DNA of 64,000 bases, taken from sequence record PZ445450.1; one strand, written 5' to 3'. How positions within the stretch are numbered: the stretch's first letter is position 1; every line of letters starts with the position of its first letter. The stretch comes from a phage. Position numbers and translations under genes: made by a program. Shown here piece after piece: positions 53,386 to 62,897 of the stretch. Under the pieces are notes generated by a model. The model worked only from the letters and a program-made list of their open reading frames with translations, did no database searches and was not told where the DNA came from.

Positions 53386-54669
53386 TCATTCCAGCACCTC
53401 CCAAGTGTCTGGGTCAACATTTCGGACGCAGATACCGACAGGGAATTGGTAGTTGTTGTCTTCTGTCCTTGATTGATATTTGAAGGTGACAAACTTGCCG
53501 ATCATTTCCTGCATCCTGTCATAGCTACGCTCCTCGTGCGTGCCTTTCATCTTCATTTTAACAACTATACCTTCCTTGTCAACGCAGATAAGAACACCTT
53601 CATCATTCTTATCTTTCTCAACGTCAATAACTTTCACCTCAGCATCGTTGAACTTTTTCCATTTCAATGCTTCAGATGTTCGCTGACCATATTCATATTT
53701 ACCACAGAAGTTACGCATGATAGTACCTTCATATCCTTCGGACATGAATACACCAACAGATTCTTCGCAATGATCAACTGTGTACGCAAGCTCTGCGTCA
53801 ACAACCTTGATATGGTCAAGCATCAGGGTGGTAATGGTATCTTCTGCATCCATAAGATCCTTGCATCGTCCAGATTCTGTTTCCGGATCCCACCATACCT
53901 TGTCACTAGGAATGTCGAAAATATGATACTCTAAGTCATAGCTACAGTACCCTCCGTAACGCAAATCATCACGAACAGGCTCAACATCAACAGGAATATC
54001 TACCTTATTGAAGTTTTTGTATGTTGATAAGCCTGCCTTAATTGCGGCATGACGGCGTTTTTTATCTGCCTCGTAGTCTTTATCGATCTCGGCCTGAATC
54101 TCTTCCTGTGTGCGCCAACGTTTAGCAAGAGACACTATTTTCTGCAGAGGCAGACCATGAATATAGATCTCTCCGTCGAGCTGTTTAATCCCGGTGGTGA
54201 AGTGGAAAGAACGAAGTTGCTCCAGAAGCTTTCCTTGAATAGGGTAGGACTTATTACCACGGGAAATAAATTTAGGCTCACCGTTTTGGAAAACAACCAG
54301 TAGACGAAGGCCATCTAACTTACGCAAGATCCAGCAGGGTAATTTAAGTGCCTTTCCACGCTTCAGGTAGTCATGCACCAGCATGGGTAAAAGGTCAACA
54401 CCCTGCTCGCAATCTTCCATATTTTCAACATACCCCAGACGGACTTGTTTTTCCCACTTACTGATCGCTTCCAGCTCAGCCTGTTGCTCAGCTGTAGTTT
54501 CATTGGCACGGCCCACGTTCTTAGGTGTGCAGATCGTCTCTTTGTATTGCAGTTTACCATCAAGCTTGCCAAACTCTACGATAACCTTATCACCATCCGT
54601 GAATACTTTCCACTGTTGGTAGCTGCCATCTTTGTTCAGTGCGTACAGTGTTGTTTTGATCTGATGCAT
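53386..54669 (-). CDS. DNA ligase (nucleotidyltransferase superfamily)
   Basis: Motif I KLDGLR, motif IV-like EGYEGTIMRN, motif V-like KMKMKG. Confidence 0.7.
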   Translation of the reverse strand: MHQIKTTLYALNKDGSYQQWKVFTDGDKVIVEFGKLDGKLQYKETICTPKNVGRANETTAEQQAELEAISKWEKQVRLGYVENMEDCEQGVDLLPMLVHDYLKRGKALKLPCWILRKLDGLRLLVVFQNGEPKFISRGNKSYPIQGKLLEQLRSFHFTTGIKQLDGEIYIHGLPLQKIVSLAKRWRTQEEIQAEIDKDYEADKKRRHAAIKAGLSTYKNFNKVDIPVDVEPVRDDLRYGGYCSYDLEYHIFDIPSDKVWWDPETESGRCKDLMDAEDTITTLMLDHIKVVDAELAYTVDHCEESVGVFMSEGYEGTIMRNFCGKYEYGQRTSEALKWKKFNDAEVKVIDVEKDKNDEGVLICVDKEGIVVKMKMKGTHEERSYDRMQEMIGKFVTFKYQSRTEDNNYQFPVGICVRNVDPDTWEVLE

Positions 54670-59195: not shown

Positions 59196-59546
59196 ATGAA
59201 AGATGGGGATAAGCTGCTATATCTTAAAGTCCCCCTTGAAATACTGTCTATGTCAAAAGTTTTGAATGACACAACTGGAGAGGTTGTTGTTCTTGACTTA
59301 TATGACAAGATCGTATACTGCTACCTGCACAACTGGTACAAGCTTGGAGGAAATTCACGCTTCACACCCAGCACAAGGAAAATTGCAGCAGATGTTGGGA
59401 TAAAGAAAACAAAAGCAGCAGCGTGCGTTAAAACTTTAGAATGTGCAGGAGTGGTTGAAATATCCACACAAGGGAGAGGTAAAAGATGCACATTTTCCAA
59501 AGTTTTGCCACCAGAAGAGGTTATTCGAATGTCAACAACTGGTTAG
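59196..59546 (+). CDS. winged-helix/HTH DNA-binding protein (putative initiator or repressor)
   Basis: aaggagaatcaggag RBS; HTH-like TRKIAADVGIKKTKAAACVKTLECAGVVEI; immediately upstream of iterons. Confidence 0.5.
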   Translation: MKDGDKLLYLKVPLEILSMSKVLNDTTGEVVVLDLYDKIVYCYLHNWYKLGGNSRFTPSTRKIAADVGIKKTKAAACVKTLECAGVVEISTQGRGKRCTFSKVLPPEEVIRMSTTG

Positions 59547-59620
59547 ACCAGTAAAAACTTAAATATCTGTACTATAAGGATTCGTATGTTTTATGTCCAC
59601 CCCAGAGCAGAGGATAGTAA

Positions 59621-59705
59621 CTGTCCGTGATACGGACACTACTGTCCGTCACGCGGACACATCTGTCCGTAATACGGACACTAACTGTCCGTGATACGGA
59701 CACAT
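59621..59705. repeat. Four tandem palindromic iterons CTGTCCGT-N4-CGGACAC
   Basis: Units at 59621, 59642, 59663 and 59686 at 21-23 bp spacing; each contains inverted half-sites GTCCGT/ACGGAC. Confidence 0.85.
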
Positions 59706-59893
59706 AAAGAATATAACTAAAATAACTAAATAATAAAAAAATAAAAGATCTAGTACTTATGGTACTAAAGTGCATATACTTAACTTATGTAGAATATACT
59801 AGATCCTAAGTACCATGTTTTAAATTTATTACTTATTGTTGGTAGTGTCGGCCCTTCATTGGCACTCGCCTACGAGGGGCGAGATGCCGGGCC
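59706..59893. other. AT-rich tract with nested palindromes followed by a long GC-rich hairpin
   Basis: 59706-59845 is strongly AT-rich with agtac-ttatg-gtact and agatctagta/tactagatc inverted repeats; hairpin 59850-59893 with ggccc/gggcc outer stem and ggca+ctcgcc / ggcgag+tgcc inner stem. Confidence 0.6.
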
Positions 59894-60208
59894 TCCATAG
59901 TGCACACAATGACAGAAGTGCATACATGCAGGACTGTTAACATGTGTGGGAGCGAAGCGATAGCGCAGGCCAAAGGCAGAGCACTAATGTTGACCACCGA
60001 CGAAAGCTTGCCAGCGCCGGAAGGAGTCGGTTGAGAGACTCCCGCGCGAGTTCTGATAAAGTTTATGTGTGGAAACTGACAAGAAGGCTCCTAAATCGCT
60101 CCACAGCTATATAAACTATACCAAGTAAGGCAATCGCACCAGTTTGATAGAAAAGCTCGTTACAAAGCGATACAGTGAGTTTTTCTATAACTTGAAGAGG
60201 AGGCTGCT

Positions 60209-60986: not shown

Positions 60987-61011
60987 CAAAAATAATGTTA
61001 CCTGATAAGAT
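60983..61011 (+). promoter_or_regulatory. sigma70 promoter (TTGACA-N17-TAAGAT)
   Basis: -35 60983-60988, -10 61006-61011. Confidence 0.55.
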
Positions 61012-61062
61012 CTGCAATATGATGTGATACAATTTTAACTTACGAGGTCTACAGGTAATGCT

Positions 61063-61305
61063 ATGTTTAAGGTTAAGCTCGTTTTCCGTTCCATGAATGA
61101 GGATTATTTAGAAGATGAAGGTGAATTTCGTGCACTAGATGATGCAATAGATTTTGCCAACGACTTAGCTTGTATGAATACTGGTTATGGTTTATGTTGT
61201 TGGGATGGTGGTGTTCAGATTGGTGATAGCAAGATCTTCTACTTCTACCCTGAGCCCGATAACAAACAAATTAAGTATGTTTTATTTATTTGTGCTTTAC
61301 AATGA
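61063..61305 (+). CDS. hypothetical protein
   Basis: 80-aa ORF downstream of promoter. Confidence 0.5.
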   Translation: MFKVKLVFRSMNEDYLEDEGEFRALDDAIDFANDLACMNTGYGLCCWDGGVQIGDSKIFYFYPEPDNKQIKYVLFICALQ

Positions 61306-61593
61306 GGTTGTTTTCGTGTATCATGATGAATATCCAATTTAAAGATGAGTTTGATGGCTTTATCTCCGGATGCTTTGAAACAGGGTTCGGAGAAGGCTGA
61401 GTTCCCCTTAGAGGGCTTGATAGTGCACCACACTTAAAATGGTAGGGGCAGCCAGCACATGACGATGTGACCCCAGCCAACCTGTAATAAGGTCGAGCCA
61501 GAGCGCGGTAATGGGTATCTGGTAACCCACTTGTTGGGTCTTGCTGGTCCAGGACGCTGGGCAAGTCGCAGGGAATACCACCCTGCGGCGAAC

Positions 61594-61640
61594 TTGACAA
61601 TCAGTATTTGCCGTGATAAAATCCACCTATCACGTGATAA
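61594..61640 (+). promoter_or_regulatory. sigma70 promoter (TTGACA-N17-TAAAAT) overlapped by operator-like repeats
   Basis: -35 61594-61599, -10 61617-61622; CGTGATAA direct repeat at 61612 and 61633 and GTGATA...TATCAC inverted repeat spanning the -10. Confidence 0.55.
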
Positions 61641-61650
61641 TGGAGGAAAC

Positions 61651-61989
61651 ATGGCGGATACAACTAAAAAGCGTCGCCGTAGAGGCAGACCTCTGAAAGA
61701 GGAGTCCAACGCCATTCAGCTAGAGAAGAACATTCTTGATATGAAGGAATCTTTTATAGCGATGGTTCCAGAAGCTCACAAAGTTTTAAGAGAGCTGATG
61801 TTGGACCCGAAAACCAAACAAAATATTCGTCAAAGCATTGCAGAGTATGTTCTTGATAAGGCAGACCGAATGCAGGAAGAATATGATGAGATGTTTGGTG
61901 AAGAGGAAGAGGTGGTAGTAGAAGAGGCTGAAAAACCAGCACCTTTTATGCCATTTACCACAGAAATACAGCCTGTTGGCAATAGTTAA
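61651..61989 (+). CDS. hypothetical protein, basic N-terminus and acidic C-terminus
   Basis: ggaggaaac RBS before internal ATG; MADTTKKRRRRGRPLKEE. Confidence 0.5.
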   Translation: MADTTKKRRRRGRPLKEESNAIQLEKNILDMKESFIAMVPEAHKVLRELMLDPKTKQNIRQSIAEYVLDKADRMQEEYDEMFGEEEEVVVEEAEKPAPFMPFTTEIQPVGNS

Positions 61990-62085
61990 AATATTTTCTT
62001 GACAAACTTTGCCTAACAGTGTAATATTATAAACATGGTCTCCCACCTTTTCTGGCGGCTCAGGTGTAAAAGAAAGCCACCCAGT

Positions 62086-62160
62086 GCCCTGTTAGCTTAG
62101 TGGATAAAGCAGCGGCCTTCTAAGCCGTTGACACTGGTTCGAGTCCAGTACGGGGTGCCA
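62086..62160 (+). tRNA. tRNA-Arg (anticodon UCU)
   Basis: Cloverleaf folded by hand: acceptor gccctgt/acggggt (one G-U), anticodon loop CUUCUAA, T-loop TTCGAGT, CCA encoded. Confidence 0.8.
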
Positions 62161-62164
62161 AATT

Positions 62165-62251
62165 GGGGAGTTATCCCGTAGAGGTAGCGGTGTAGACTGT
62201 AAATCTATTGTCATTGCGACTCGGGTGGTTCGACTCCACCACTCCCCACCA
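62165..62251 (+). tRNA. tRNA-Tyr (anticodon GUA), class II
   Basis: Acceptor ggggagt/actcccc, anticodon loop CUGUAAA, long variable arm, T-loop TTCGACT, CCA encoded. Confidence 0.75.
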
Positions 62252-62365
62252 AATTTATATTTTTAAATGCATAAATCATACAGATAATGACATTGATATT
62301 TATCGTCGTTTATACTAGTCACTAACTGCTCGAAAATCAGTGTCATTATCAGTGTAATTTATAAA

Positions 62366-62456
62366 GGAGGGTAGGGAGCAATGGTGCTCAAGCGGTCTTG
62401 AAAACCGTCCCGTTGAGGATGACTCGATGATGGTTCGATTCCATTACTCTCCGCCA
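62366..62456 (+). tRNA. tRNA-Ser (anticodon UGA), class II
   Basis: Acceptor ggagggt/actctcc, anticodon loop CUUGAAA, long variable arm, T-loop TTCGATT, CCA encoded. Confidence 0.75.
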
Positions 62457-62554
62457 CATTGTTGACCTTGTAATTAAGCGAAAGCCGGAAGCAGAACCGG
62501 ATTATCAAATGTTACAGTCGTCATCGCCGACTAGCCACATGGTCAACATATTGC

Positions 62555-62653
62555 GCTAGGTAAGCCCTTTGGCAAGGGCGAGGATTTTTAATCCTGAAAA
62601 TAGACGAGGTAGTCGTTGAATACATAGGTGGTTCGATTCCATCACCTAGCACC
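62555..62653 (+). tRNA. aberrant tRNA-like gene (candidate Lys-UUU-like anticodon loop; ~30-nt insertion before T-arm)
   Basis: Acceptor gctaggt/acctagc, D-arm gccc-tttggcaa-gggc, T-arm ggtgg-ttcgatt-ccatc. Anticodon region aggatttttaatcct gives UUUUUAA loop only with a 4-bp stem; ~30 nt lie between it and the T-arm; 3' CC only. Confidence 0.45.
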
Positions 62654-62657
62654 TTTT

Positions 62658-62733
62658 GCTGATGTAGCACAATTGGCAGTGCAATTGATTTGTAATCAAT
62701 AGGTTGCAGGTTCAAGTCCTGCCATCAGCACCA
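62658..62733 (+). tRNA. tRNA-Thr (anticodon UGU)
   Basis: Acceptor gctgatg/catcagc, D-stem gcac/gtgc, anticodon loop UUUGUAA, T-loop TTCAAGT, CCA encoded. Confidence 0.8.
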
Positions 62734-62734
62734 T

Positions 62735-62809
62735 GGCCCTGTAGCTGGAAGGTTCAAGCAAGCGACTCATAATCGCCAGACGGTGGTTCAATTCCACCCA
62801 GGGCCACCA
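62735..62809 (+). tRNA. tRNA-Met (anticodon CAU; elongator Met or Ile2 lysidine type)
   Basis: Acceptor ggccctg/cagggcc with G1-C72, anticodon loop CUCAUAA, T-loop TTCAATT, CCA encoded. Confidence 0.7.
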
Positions 62810-62820
62810 AATAATAAATA

Positions 62821-62897
62821 CTCCGCGTAGCTCAGCTTGGTAGAGCGCCTGATTTGGGATCAGGAGGTCGAGTGTTCGAATCACTCCGTGGAGACCA
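62821..62897 (+). tRNA. tRNA-Pro (anticodon UGG)
   Basis: C1-G72 acceptor typical of tRNA-Pro, anticodon loop UUUGGGA, T-loop TTCGAAT, CCA encoded. Confidence 0.8.

What the first reader, a model, noticed from the sequence alone, without database searches (positions are those of the whole stretch)
61306..61650. 300-bp GC-rich non-coding stretch upstream of the tRNA cluster
61320-61610 has no supported plus-strand ORF longer than 26 codons; three overlapping minus-strand track ORFs look like GC-driven artefacts. It contains strong stems (gcaggg-aatacca-ccctgc at 61568-61586) and ends at a consensus promoter whose -10 region is embedded in CGTGATAA direct and GTGATA/TATCAC inverted repeats. It may encode a structured RNA and contains a likely operator.
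Basis: seen in the sequence. Interest (0 to 1): 0.45.

Follow-up and report, generated by a model that had tools for sequence, protein, structure and literature searches.

The report
Conserved structured RNA beside phage tRNAs
The GC-rich gap upstream of this E. coli phage's tRNA genes holds a folded RNA whose ~50-base core recurs almost letter for letter in phage T4 and several unrelated phages, matches no described RNA family, and has no known function.

Summary
The window is a Vequintavirus (rV5/FV3-like E. coli phage). The minus-strand ORFs are artefacts.

The main result lies inside the stretch. Window 61470-61522 is a compact three-way-junction RNA motif: closing stem P1, hairpin ACCU-GUAAUA-AGGU, linker CGA, a mini-hairpin, and the strand GGUAA.

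The same motif is found in:
- about 850 T4-like phage records, including T4 itself, where it is hidden inside the annotated 5' end of vs.8;
- an uncultured sister group of Vequintavirus;
- ~46-kb Klebsiella siphophages;
- four metagenomic lineages.

P1 covaries strongly. G·U pairs place the structure on the + strand. There is no Rfam 15 match, no tRNA or tmRNA call, no E. coli chromosomal copy, and no paper containing the sequence.

Outside T4-likes the motif usually lies within 200-800 nt of same-strand tRNA genes, with its own promoter or terminator in some lineages.

Best reading: a gene for a stable non-coding RNA in the phage's tRNA/stable-RNA cluster, whose invariant core docks a conserved host factor. 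The function is inferred, not shown. A riboswitch-like leader is the main rival. The promoter-embedded repeats are real, but their operator role is untested.

The parts
61296..61324 (+). Upstream sigma-70-like promoter, TTTACA-17-TATCAT. It is a candidate start (about 61331) for a transcript covering the whole GC-rich stretch.
   Evidence: 10 of 12 matches. It is not conserved as such in the sister group, which instead has TTGACA-17-TATACT directly in front of the RNA.
61302..61400 (+). Small ORF of 32 aa whose start overlaps the stop of gene 61063-61305 (ATGA). Its status is uncertain.
   Evidence: It is annotated as a CDS in relatives. Only the 21-nt block AAAGATGAGTTTGATGGCTTT (61341-61361) is conserved in the sister group, where the ORF is only 8 codons.
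61398..61592 (+). Estimated extent of the Vequintavirus form of the RNA (about 195 nt). It runs from the position matching the sister group's transcription start to just before the next promoter.
   Evidence: Alignment with the sister group and the promoters found in L126. The ends are inferred, not mapped.
61404..61444 (+). Conserved 5' block: hairpin CCCC-UUAGA-GGG, then CUUGAUAGUGCACCACACU (AGUG-CACCA-CACU), then AAAAUGGUA.
   Evidence: It is nearly invariant between Vequintavirus and the sister group, although the flanks diverge. The sister group repeats the box CCC-AUAGA-GGGCUUGAAAGUGC 3' of the core (two matches each in L126 and L134).
61445..61474 (+). Hairpin H0, just 5' of the core: GGGG [CAGCCAG] CACAU-GACG-AUGUG A CCCC.
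   Evidence: An equivalent hairpin is present with different sequence in other lineages: GGGAA/UUCCC in T4, GGAAC/GUUCC in the sister group, GAGUG/CACUC and GAAUG/CAUUC in the Klebsiella phage group, GUGG/CCAC in L039, GAGG/CCUC in L057. These are read and predicted by folding for most of them.
61470..61522 (+). Conserved three-way-junction core. P1 is 61476-61479 paired with 61512 and 61514-61516. P2 is 61480-61483 paired with 61490-61493, with loop GUAAUA. J2/3 is CGA, 61494-61496. P3 is 61497-61499 paired with 61504-61506. J3/1 is GGUAA, 61507-61511.
   Evidence: Covariance model R1 scores 68.8 bits, E 2.5e-20, the only strong hit in the window. The same motif is found in other phage lineages.
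61526..61538 (+). Hairpin P5, CCCA-CUUGU-UGGG. Its CCC can alternatively pair with GGG 61513-61515 (P4).
   Evidence: the flanking pair changes on both sides (A-U to U-A) in variant L392. The sister group has CCC-AUAGA-GGG at the same place.
61540..61565 (+). Hairpin P6, CUUGC...GCAAG, with inner stem UCCAG-GACG-CUGGG.
   Evidence: Compensatory changes among Vequintavirus variants: UCCAG/CUGGG, UCCAG/CUGGA, CUCAG/CUGAG.
61567..61587 (+). Hairpin P7, CGCAGGG-AAUACCA-CCCUGCG. No run of U follows it.
   Evidence: I2. The stem is invariant and the loop varies among variants. It is absent from the sister group. No terminator-like site was found.
61594..61622 (+). Near-consensus promoter TTGACA-17-TAAAAT with an upstream TG, serving gene 61651-61989.
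   Evidence: 11 of 12. It is conserved in the sister group as TTGACA-17-TAAACT.
61612..61640 (.). Repeats overlapping the -10 and +1: two CGTGATAA 21 bp apart, and three GTGATA half-sites in inverted orientation. This is a possible operator.
   Evidence: The 8-mer count is not significant. A related inverted repeat is present in the sister group. Function was not tested.
61651..61989 (+). Gene for a 112-aa protein with a basic N-terminus (KKRRRRGRP) and an acidic C-terminus. It is a neighbour of the RNA, not shown to be part of it.
   Evidence: PHROG 3330, unknown function, no Pfam match. In GAP31-like relatives its homologue lies inside the tRNA cluster and the RNA motif is absent.
62086..62897 (+). 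tRNA cluster (Arg, Tyr, Ser, one odd tRNA, Thr, Met, Pro), 564 nt downstream of the core on the same strand.

Best explanation
The stretch is a gene for a structured non-coding RNA that belongs to the phage's stable-RNA (tRNA) cluster.

**Proposed mechanism**
1. It is transcribed on the + strand by host RNA polymerase from an early-type sigma-70 promoter. That is 61296-61324 here, and a consensus promoter directly in front of the RNA in the sister group.
2. It folds into a row of hairpins around a ~50-nt three-way junction at 61470-61522.
3. The almost invariant loop and junction nucleotides (GURRNA, CGA, GGUAA) form a docking surface for a macromolecule that is conserved across gammaproteobacterial hosts. 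A component of the translation, tRNA or RNA-processing machinery is the most plausible partner.
4. The RNA accumulates either as the 5' part of longer transcripts or as a processed fragment, and acts in trans.

**Shown here**
- the motif;
- its covarying helices and its strand;
- its spread across unrelated phages;
- its neighbourhood (tRNA genes);
- promoters or terminators beside it in some lineages.

**Inferred, not shown**
- transcription in this phage;
- the 5' and 3' ends;
- stability of the RNA;
- action in trans;
- the identity of the partner.
For: **1. Conservation across phage families**
- A 45-nt piece (61473-61517) matches a non-coding spacer in about 850 T4-like records at about 85-95% identity, while the rest of the stretch matches only 118 Vequintavirus records.
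- T4 itself carries the motif between denV and vs.8.
- Further copies occur in an uncultured sister group of Vequintavirus, in ~46-kb Klebsiella siphophages, and in four metagenomic lineages.

**2. Structure**
- On 28 distinct sequences, 88.6% of cells pair, against 76.3% in shuffles.
- The covariation score is 0.293 against 0.071 in shuffles, reached by 0 of 500 shuffles.
- Sliding the 3' partners by 1-3 columns lowers pairing to 24-48%.
- Three P1 pairs have no unpaired cell: CG 22 / GC 6; CG 21 / UA 3 / GC 2 / AU 1 / GU 1; AU 18 / UA 4 / CG 3 / UG 3.
- P3 swaps C-G to G-C in L392. P2 changes ACCU/AGGU to GCCU/AGGC in the second copy in L041.
- The Vequintavirus-specific hairpins P5 and P6 also show compensatory changes.

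**3. Strand**
- The G·U and U·G pairs would be A·C mismatches on the other strand.
- All neighbouring genes and tRNAs are on the + strand.

**4. Family is sharply defined**
- The covariance model finds the true copies at 36-70 bits and nothing in between in 843 kb of other viral DNA.
- There is one strong hit in the window.

**5. Not coding**
- In RB18 the T4-style reading frame through the element is closed by a stop codon.

**6. Looks like a separate RNA gene**
- Sister group: TTGACA-17-TATACT about 70 nt upstream of the core, and the next promoter directly after the RNA.
- L038: the core follows tRNA-Pro by 289 nt and is followed 17 nt later by an 11-bp terminator-like hairpin with a U tract.
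- L057: by eye, a CATAAT -10-like hexamer lies just upstream of hairpin H0 and a hairpin with a U run lies about 130 nt downstream of the core, inside a ~980-nt stretch without ORFs. The consensus scan confirmed neither: its only + strand promoter-like site near the motif is a different one, and it found no + strand terminator.

**7. Association with tRNA genes**
- Distance from the core to the nearest same-strand tRNA gene: window 564 nt; L126 512; L032 235; L045 352; L050 196; L036 332; L034 709; L038 289; L111 803.
- In GAP31-like relatives the equivalent position upstream of the 61651 homologue is occupied by tRNA genes.
Against: - No expression data for any copy were available here.
- In this phage no terminator follows the RNA, and the nearest good upstream promoter is 100 nt before the conserved part. 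The RNA may therefore exist only as part of longer transcripts.
- In T4-like phages the element is an intercistronic spacer directly upstream of one gene (vs.8 or a substitute), which looks like a cis-acting leader.
- Folding energy is not better than shuffles.
- No partner is identified. Every specific idea tested (tRNA, rRNA or 4.5S mimicry) failed or was marginal.
- L057 and L039 show no tRNA in the short DNA held for them.
Confidence: 0.5

Rival explanations
1. The core is a cis-acting sensor, like a riboswitch or a protein-binding leader: an aptamer whose folding (P1 formed or not) sets read-through or translation of what lies downstream, with a different expression platform in each phage.
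For: - It is a small junction with near-invariant unpaired nucleotides and short covarying helices, kept across phages while the flanks differ.
- In T4-likes it always sits in the spacer ending 15-25 nt before the ribosome-binding site of vs.8 or its substitute.
- In L038 a terminator-like hairpin begins 17 nt after the core, and an ORF with a ribosome-binding site follows.
- The GGG of the P1 3' strand can alternatively pair with a downstream CCC: window GGGU/ACCC at 61513-61528, T4-like GGGU...GCCC. Mutually exclusive helices of this kind are typical of expression platforms (read).
Against: - The downstream genes share no function: vs.8, an unrelated small gene in L018, a promoter followed by the 112-aa protein gene, tRNAs, long hairpin arrays, a tail-fibre-sized ORF.
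- In the window and the sister group a strong promoter lies between the RNA and the next gene.
- In L034 and L038 the element lies downstream of tRNAs.
- No ligand is suggested by the gene context.
- P2 and P3 are very short for a metabolite pocket.
Confidence: 0.2
2. It is an RNA processing, stability or anti-termination element for untranslated stable-RNA operons. Examples would be a put-like RNA that makes RNA polymerase resistant to termination, or a folded block that defines or protects ends generated by RNase E or RNase P.
For: - It lies at the head of, or inside, non-translated tRNA/ncRNA islands.
- Tandem promoters bracket it in the sister group.
- Sequence conservation across hosts would fit binding to RNA polymerase or an RNase.
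Against: - There is no boxA-like sequence near it in the window.
- In L038 it is followed at once by a terminator, which argues against anti-termination.
- In T4-likes it is embedded among translated genes.
- The idea was not tested directly.
Confidence: 0.12
3. It is a decoy or mimic of a translation component. One version is a mimic of an anticodon stem-loop that titrates an anticodon nuclease or tRNA-guanine transglycosylase (P2 loop C-U-G-U-A-A). Another is a mimic of the 23S rRNA GTPase-associated centre or the 4.5S RNA decamer.
For: - The invariant U-G-U in the P2 loop is the element that tRNA-guanine transglycosylase is known to recognise. This recognition rule is from my own knowledge and was not tested here.
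- The window RNA shares colinear short matches with 23S rRNA 973-1123, including CAGCCA, GUAAUA and GGUCGAG. The chain score is 45 against 32.5 ± 3.9, and 2 of 300 shuffles reach it.
- Hairpin H0 aligns to 4.5S RNA 60-85 with score 24 against 16.5 ± 2.5, and 6 of 500 shuffles reach it.
- It is associated with tRNA clusters.
Against: - The covariance model does not find anything in the E. coli rrnH operon.
- Ordinary local alignments to rRNA lie within the shuffle distribution for all lineages.
- The chain and 4.5S signals are seen only for the window sequence, and they are no stronger than one clearly spurious result among the 16 tests.
- The loop has 6 nt, not 7, and one lineage has A in place of the G.
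- Rfam's tRNA, SRP and L10-leader models give no hit.
Confidence: 0.08
4. It is not an RNA at all: either a DNA-level element (operator region, origin, recombination hotspot) or a real small protein gene on the minus strand.
For: - Some GenBank records annotate a 72-aa minus-strand CDS here.
- Inverted and direct repeats are present at the 3' end.
- A putative origin lies 1.7 kb upstream.
Against: - The frames are not preserved among near-identical variants.
- G·U pairs make the structure strand-specific.
- The conserved part, 61470-61522, carries no repeats.
- The same motif sits in quite different DNA contexts in other phages.
Confidence: 0.03

Closest known systems
Phage T4 RNA C and RNA D (stable RNAs of the T4 tRNA gene cluster)
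   Same: They are phage-encoded, non-coding, embedded among tRNA genes, presumably released from tRNA-containing transcripts, and of unknown function (PMC9697503 calls them RNAs of yet unknown function).
   Different: I saw no sequence resemblance: the RNA C probe sequences printed in PMC9697503 do not contain the motif. This was by eye, and RNA D was not examined. In T4 the new motif lies elsewhere, between denV and vs.8, about 5 kb from the tRNA cluster by my recollection of the T4 map.
GOLLD and ROOL RNAs (large ornate RNAs of phages and prophages)
   Same: They are structured RNAs carried by phages, often next to tRNA genes, with no known biochemical function (the association is from my own knowledge; PMC12286853 came up).
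   Different: They are 500-800 nt and form multimeric cages, and both are in Rfam. This RNA is about 150-200 nt with a ~50-nt core and gives no Rfam hit.
Three-way-junction riboswitch aptamers (for example the purine class)
   Same: A closing helix P1 plus two hairpins. The junction strands are nearly invariant while the helices covary. The motif is reused upstream of different genes.
   Different: P2 and P3 are only 4 and 2-3 bp. There is no coherent set of regulated genes and no ligand. Several copies are not in a 5' UTR. No Rfam riboswitch model matches.
HK022 put RNA / lambda nut (boxA-boxB) anti-termination RNAs
   Same: A cis-encoded phage RNA near promoters, with hairpin loops of the GNRA-like kind. 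In this phage a protein with an arginine-rich N-terminus is encoded just downstream.
   Different: There is no boxA. A terminator directly follows the core in L038. The basic protein occurs without the RNA in GAP31-like phages.
CsrB-like / TwoAYGGAY RNAs (hairpins presenting GGA to CsrA/RsmA)
   Same: The hairpins flanking the core carry AYGGAY or CAGGAC in or at their loops: AUGGAC and ACGGAA/AAGGAA in T4-likes, ACGGAC twice in the sister group, CAGGACG in the window at 61550-61556. These are read. The proposed Csr/Rsm link of the AYGGAY motif is discussed in bioRxiv 10.64898/2026.09.22.753630.
   Different: The conserved core itself has no GGA motif. Rfam's TwoAYGGAY model does not hit. I did not test whether GGA loops are enriched.

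Membership tests
tRNA / tRNA-like | Cloverleaf recognised by ARAGORN or by the Rfam tRNA model | tested here: not met
   ARAGORN finds 7 tRNAs at 62086-62897 and none in 61306-61650. A permissive Rfam scan of 61390-61600 at E up to 10 gives no tRNA hit.
tmRNA | tRNA-like domain plus a tag reading frame (ARAGORN) | tested here: not met
   No tmRNA was called in the window.
Any Rfam 15 family (4227 models, including riboswitches, ribozymes, SRP, 6S, RNase P, GOLLD, ROOL, L10 leader, TwoAYGGAY) | Covariance-model match | tested here: not met
   Nothing in the stretch at E up to 1 in 6 kb. Only noise at E of 1.7 or more in 211 nt. Nothing at the T4, type B, type B' or sister-group copies. Only tRNAs and group I introns elsewhere in the other loci.
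New motif family defined here (model R1) | P1-P2-CGA-P3-GGUAA three-way junction scoring well with the covariance model | tested here: met
   The window scores 68.8 bits, E 2.5e-20, but this sequence was in the seed. Copies not in the seed score 36.6-68.4 bits (L071, L076, L085, L105, L121, L113, and the second copies in L041 and L046).
Structured RNA in general | Compensatory base changes that keep helices, above controls | tested here: met
   covariation score 0.293 against 0.071, reached by 0 of 500 shuffles, and slid controls give 0.009-0.062. The related sequences and the hand-derived structure inflate these figures somewhat. P2 never varies in the seed.
Structured RNA in general | Folding energy lower than shuffled sequence | tested here: inconclusive
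   z = -2.26 for 61306-61650, + strand. z = -0.67 for 61398-61592, + strand, and -1.05 for the - strand.
Independent sRNA gene | Own promoter and own terminator | tested here: inconclusive
   Window: a promoter-like site at 61296-61324 but no terminator. Sister group: a consensus promoter, no terminator, and the next promoter abuts. L038: a terminator-like hairpin right after the core. L057: promoter-like and terminator-like sequences seen by eye only; the scan confirmed neither. L039: the scan found none.
Riboswitch | Ligand-dependent conformational change that controls a downstream gene | not testable with these tools
   Only indirect evidence is available: the position in T4-likes and L038, and the alternative pairings.
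Mimic of the 16S rRNA 530 loop or the 23S GTPase-associated centre | Similarity to the rRNA site beyond chance | tested here: not met
   Model R1 finds nothing at those sites in rrnH. Local alignments lie within the shuffle range. The colinear k-mer chain to 23S 973-1123 is marginal, seen in the window only (2 of 300 shuffles), and no better than a spurious control. The identities that prompted the idea are real: GCCAG.AGC.GCGGUAAU in 16S, and GUAAUA and GGUCGAG in 23S.
Protein-coding gene on the minus strand (annotated in some records) | Reading frame kept among relatives | tested here: not met
   the three open frames are joined differently in window, L309, L392, L395 and L397, and are broken in the sister group.
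Operator overlapping a promoter | Repeated or inverted half-sites at -10/+1, conserved, with a cognate DNA-binding protein | tested here: inconclusive
   The half-sites are present. They are partly conserved in the sister group. The 8-mer count is not above chance. No binding protein is identified.
Solitary CRISPR repeat / RNA anti-CRISPR | Similarity to a host CRISPR repeat over most of its length | not tested
   Only GAGTTCCCC (61398-61406) resembles the start of the E. coli type I-E repeat, which I recalled from memory. The sister group has GCGTTCCCC or GCGTATCCC there, so I dropped the idea.

The most novel reading that the evidence does not exclude
The ~50-nt junction is a decoy that unrelated virulent phages of Gammaproteobacteria (T4-like, rV5-like, Klebsiella siphophages and others) have exchanged among themselves. 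It would capture one universally conserved component of the host translation or tRNA apparatus. One version is a mimic of the ribosomal GTPase-associated centre (H43-H44, GUAAUA loop, GGUCGAG) that titrates L11, L10 or a translational GTPase. Another is a mimic of an anticodon loop for a tRNA-targeting enzyme or immune nuclease. Either would be an RNA-based host-takeover or anti-defence device present, unnoticed, in T4.
Probability: 0.08. Interest if true: 0.85.

Novelty: new variant of a known kind. Interest (0 to 1): 0.6.

Why it matters
- T4 is the best-studied virulent phage, yet this element is hidden inside the annotated start of vs.8. In rV5-like genomes it is either unannotated or covered by spurious ORFs.
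- A ~50-nt RNA core kept nearly identical in myoviruses and siphoviruses that share almost nothing else points to horizontal spread and to a strongly constrained interaction with something in the host.
- That makes a concrete, cheap experimental question. T4 genetics, Northern blots and pull-downs could show what the RNA binds and what it does for the phage.
- It may also bear on the unresolved question of why phages keep non-tRNA stable RNAs in or beside their tRNA clusters.
- For annotation, it gives a covariance model. It also argues for removing the minus-strand hypothetical protein in Vequintavirus records and for moving the T4 vs.8 start codon.

Tried and rejected
1. **Rfam.** Four scans, including a permissive one. 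Nothing was found.
2. **Host origin.** No blastn match in 5,426 complete E. coli genomes. The only plasmid hit is a 137.6-kb record that looks like a Vequintavirus genome.
3. **Bacterial genomes and metagenomes.** After filtering for the P2 hairpin, only phage-like copies remained and there were no new lineages.
4. **16S 530-loop mimic.** The idea came from GC-nnnn-GC-GGUAAU. The identity with E. coli rrsH is real. However, the model does not hit rRNA, and the alignment score of 23 sits within the null of 22 ± 2.2.
5. **23S GTPase-centre and 4.5S RNA mimic.** Marginal, seen in the window sequence only, and not robust to multiple testing.
6. **Lambda-N/nut-like pairing with the arginine-rich downstream protein.**
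   - There is no boxA.
   - The protein exists without the RNA in GAP31-like phages.
   - The UGCUCUUU-like boxes in the Klebsiella phage group are the 3' strands of long hairpins.
7. **Partnership with Vs.8.** There is no Vs.8 homologue in the window or in the non-T4 loci.
8. **CRISPR-repeat resemblance of GAGTTCCCC.** Not conserved, so dropped.
9. **First model of the helices.** I first took GGGU-AUCUGGUA-ACCC (61513-61528) and the T4-like GGGU...GCCC as a conserved helix P4. Variants such as naam and YN3 (AGGCC...) and the competing P5 made me demote it to a possible alternative pairing.
10. **RNAalifold on Vequintavirus variants.** It proposes a different closing helix that uses the GGU of GGUAA. 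That helix does not hold in type B or B' T4-likes, so I kept the P1.
11. **Literature.** No paper contains the motif sequence. The T4 omics paper mentions neither vs.8 nor this spacer. The catalogue of 10,006 viral candidate RNAs may include it but names nothing relevant.
12. **Second model hit in the window.** The hit at 53794-53845 (20 bits) is antisense inside a 427-aa ORF and is probably chance.
Full report
**What the window is**

Megablast of 61000-62100 finds 118 phage records at 95-100% identity. All are Vequintavirus (rV5/FV3-like E. coli myoviruses), and vB_EcoM-ECP32 is 100% identical. The stretch lies between small early-type genes and a cluster of seven tRNA genes at 62086-62897. 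All of these are on the + strand.

**Checking the observation**

- GC content rises to 0.47-0.53 across 61325-61700, against 0.35-0.41 on both sides.
- Plus-strand ORFs are short (30 and 36 codons). A 32-codon one from ATG 61302 is annotated in relatives.
- Three minus-strand ORFs of 72-104 codons overlap the stretch, and one is annotated as a CDS in some records.
- Among Vequintavirus variants that are 95-98% identical, small indels re-join these three open frames in different combinations. In the sister group they fall apart.
- The stem at 61567-61587, the near-consensus promoter at 61594-61622 (TTGACA-17-TAAAAT with TG, 11 of 12) and the CGTGATAA / GTGATA-TATCAC repeats at 61612-61640 are all present.
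- Two cautions apply. The 8-mer count is not above chance. Folding energy is not convincing either: z = -2.26 for the whole stretch and -0.67 for the refined 195 nt.

**The lead**

A sensitive blastn of 61320-61600 against 50,697 phage records hit 976 records. Of these, 118 were Vequintaviruses matching over the full length. The rest were T4-like phages (Tequatrovirus, Mosigvirus, Moonvirus, Jiaodavirus and others) matching only 40-49 nt at 85-95% identity. In most listed records that match fell where nothing is annotated.

In RB18, Ge15, Merlin, Mineola, Ursula and phiC120 the match lies in a 150-210-nt spacer directly upstream of vs.8 or its counterpart.

T4 itself has it between denV and vs.8. 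There the annotated vs.8 start (219 aa, against about 175-180 aa elsewhere) runs across it. In RB18 the same frame is closed by a stop codon before the real start. The T4 extension is therefore probably an annotation artefact.

**More copies**

Pattern scans of IMG/VR brought in further lineages.

- An uncultured sister group of Vequintavirus (L037, L126, L134, L137) has the same gene order but a much-diverged spacer. It has no counterpart among isolated phages.
- A further T4-like type (L033, L040 and others) includes genomes with two tandem copies (L041, L046).
- A group of ~46-70-kb contigs matches isolated Klebsiella siphophages such as VLCpiS13d, KlebP_265 and vB_KpnS_ZX4.
- Four other metagenomic lineages carry it (L038, L039, L057/L370, L111/L113). 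Their neighbours hint at Pseudomonas- or Pseudoalteromonas-type phages, though only through flanking sequence.
- No copy was found in complete E. coli genomes. The single plasmid hit is a 137.6-kb record that looks like a phage genome.
After filtering they added only more phage copies.

**Anatomy of the core**

Forty-four distinct versions share this plan:

- a 3-6-bp closing helix P1, formed by the bases just upstream of P2 and the bases just after GGUAA, usually with one bulged purine;
- hairpin P2, ACCU-GURRNA-AGGU;
- linker CGA;
- mini-hairpin P3 (G-C, C-G, then a variable third pair, with a 3-4-nt loop);
- strand GGUAA.

On a 28-sequence alignment, counting pairs for this structure gave the following.

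| Measure | Observed | Shuffles (500) | Partners slid by 1-3 columns |
|---|---|---|---|
| Cells forming a standard pair | 88.6% | 76.3 ± 1.3% | 24-48% |
| Covariation score | 0.293 | 0.071 (0 of 500 reach it) | 0.009-0.062 |

Three P1 pairs have no unpaired cell and four to five pair types each. P1 sequences include GCC/GGU, ACC/GGU, ACU/AGU, GGC/GCC, GCA/UGU, CUGG/CCAG and GCACU/AGUGC.

P2 is invariant in the seed, but becomes GCCU/AGGC in the second copy of L041. P3 swaps C-G to G-C in the Vequintavirus variant L392. The G·U pairs fix the strand.

These counts lean somewhat toward the structure, because I derived it from the same sequences and they are related. The slid controls and the number of pair types argue that the signal is real.

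A covariance model built from the alignment scores the window copy at 68.8 bits (61470-61522). Its next hit in 64 kb is 20 bits, antisense inside an ORF. In 843 kb of other viral loci it finds 26 copies at 36.6-70.5 bits and nothing else at E up to 0.01.

**Around the core**

A hairpin, H0, immediately 5' of P1 is present in most lineages with unrelated stem sequences.

In Vequintavirus the RNA continues as follows.

- 5' of the core is a block that is almost invariant between Vequintavirus and the sister group (61404-61444).
- 3' of the core are three hairpins: P5 at 61526-61538, P6 at 61540-61565 and P7 at 61567-61587.
- P5 and P6 show compensatory changes among variants.

T4-likes instead carry a 3' domain with hairpins that present AUGGAC and A(C/A)GGAA. 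The sister group presents ACGGAC twice. These fit the AYGGAY/GGA pattern linked to CsrA-type proteins, but I did not test enrichment. Possible alternative pairings (GGGU with ACCC or GCCC) and a possible pseudoknot (GCCAG with CUGGU) remain unproven.

**Context**

Outside the T4-likes the core lies 196-803 nt from same-strand tRNA genes in the window, the sister group, five Klebsiella-phage-type loci, L038 and L111. tRNA clusters occupy only a few percent of such genomes, so this is unlikely to be chance in five independent lineages. That last step is inference.

- In the sister group a consensus promoter (TTGACA-17-TATACT) lies about 70 nt upstream of the core, and the next promoter abuts the RNA's 3' end.
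- In L038 the core follows tRNA-Pro and is followed 17 nt later by a terminator-like hairpin.
- L057 shows promoter-like and terminator-like sequences around it by eye, within ~980 nt free of ORFs. The scan confirmed neither.
- In the Klebsiella phage group it is one module of a ~1.1-kb untranslated island that ends in tRNAs.
- The protein gene downstream in the window (61651-61989, no known domain) has homologues in GAP31-like Vequintavirinae. There it sits inside the tRNA cluster, the positions upstream are filled by tRNA genes, and the motif is absent. The RNA therefore behaves as a member of the stable-RNA cluster, not as a partner of that protein.

**What it most likely is**

I conclude with high confidence that the stretch encodes a conserved, structured, + strand RNA element of a family not in Rfam 15 and not found by sequence in the literature library.

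How it works is inference. I favour a stable non-coding RNA, made from an early sigma-70 promoter and possibly processed from longer transcripts, whose invariant loop and junction bases bind a conserved host factor (confidence about 0.5). The rivals are:

- a riboswitch-like or protein-binding leader (0.2), best supported by the T4-like and L038 arrangements;
- a processing, stability or anti-termination element (0.12);
- a specific decoy of the translation or tRNA machinery (0.08);
- a DNA-level or coding explanation (0.03).

**Specific identities tested**

- tRNA and tmRNA: not met.
- 16S 530-loop mimicry: the local identity with rrsH is real but not above chance.
- 23S GTPase-centre and 4.5S RNA mimicry: colinear short matches (CAGCCA, GUAAUA, GGUCGAG) and a 25-nt alignment of H0 to 4.5S RNA reach about 1% of shuffles for the window sequence only. 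One obviously spurious comparison did as well. I therefore treat this as a lead, not a finding.
- nut-like system: no boxA.
- Vs.8 partnership: no homologue outside T4-likes.

**The promoter repeats**

The three GTGATA half-sites and the 21-bp-spaced CGTGATAA copies overlap the -10 and +1 of a near-consensus promoter. The left arm is upstream of the expected start, so any function would be at the DNA level. The sister group keeps a related inverted repeat at the same place. This is compatible with an operator, but nothing here tests it.

**Novelty and interest**

The kind of thing, a phage non-coding RNA beside tRNA genes with unknown function, is known (T4 RNA C and D; GOLLD and ROOL). This family, its three-way-junction core and its distribution appear to be undescribed.

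Its presence in T4, its near-identity across unrelated phages, and the ease of testing it make it moderately to highly interesting. The absence of any expression data or functional clue keeps the score below the top range.

Noticed in passing
window 59610-60130: Directly after a gene annotated in a relative as a replication initiation protein (59196-59546) there are four ~21-bp repeats, CTGTCCGTnAyrCGGACAC, each a palindrome GTCCGT/ACGGAC. An AT-rich stretch follows (59700-59830, GC 0.27), and then a second GC-rich patch free of ORFs (59840-60130, GC 0.52-0.56). It looks like an iteron-type origin. The GC-rich patch is conserved only within Vequintavirus.
   Followed up: partly
L030 (T4, NC_000866) about 64.85-64.93 kb, complementary strand: The annotated start of T4 vs.8 (219 aa) runs across the conserved RNA element. 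Other T4-likes start about 40 codons later (MRTFLTG...), and in RB18 the extended frame is closed by a stop. The T4 start codon is probably mis-assigned.
   Followed up: partly
window 62555-62653: ARAGORN calls a 99-nt 'tRNA-???' with a four-base anticodon (atcc). Rfam's tRNA model gives it only 35.5 bits. It may be a tRNA with an insertion or intron, or a pseudo-tRNA.
   Followed up: no
window 53794-53845 (+): This is a weak second hit of the motif model (20.1 bits, rough E of 5e-4). It lies antisense inside a 427-aa minus-strand ORF (53386-54669) and is probably chance.
   Followed up: partly
L036 8340-9480 (minus strand); also L032, L034, L045, L050: Klebsiella siphophage-type genomes carry a ~1.1-kb untranslated island between head-tail genes and the major tail gene. 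It has a promoter-like TTGACA-17-TAGATT, several long hairpin modules bounded by repeated GUGCYMUUUCCGUUGUGRYGA boxes, the motif studied here, and tRNA genes at the end. L034 also has an isolated tRNA T-arm-like GCGGUUCGAUUCCGC in one module.
   Followed up: partly
L401 5345 onward; L402 4092-5357; L403 5299 onward: In GAP31-like Vequintavirinae a gene with a Pfam Gad2 hit (PF26128, an anti-Gabija protein family) lies just beyond the tRNA cluster that contains the homologue of window gene 61651-61989.
   Followed up: no
L041 5090-5253 and L046 9018-9182: Some T4-like genomes carry two tandem, diverged copies of the motif about 60 nt apart. The second copy has CA instead of CGA and a GUC-CGC-GAC or GCC-CGC-GGC mini-hairpin.
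   Followed up: partly
and one search hit lists: Eighteen records named 'Campylobacter phage', with host given as Campylobacter jejuni, match this E. coli Vequintavirus region; those listed are 96-99% identical. Most have no annotation. They are likely mislabelled or contaminant assemblies.
   Followed up: no
L126 3115-3418 and L038 12784-13079: Group I introns (Rfam RF00028, 81 and 54 bits) lie a few kb from the motif in the sister-group contig and in L038.
   Followed up: no
window 61341-61361: A 21-nt block, AAAGATGAGTTTGATGGCTTT, is conserved between Vequintavirus and the sister group although the small ORF around it is not. In the sister group it lies immediately upstream of the -35 of the RNA's promoter, so it may be a promoter-proximal DNA element.
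   Followed up: no
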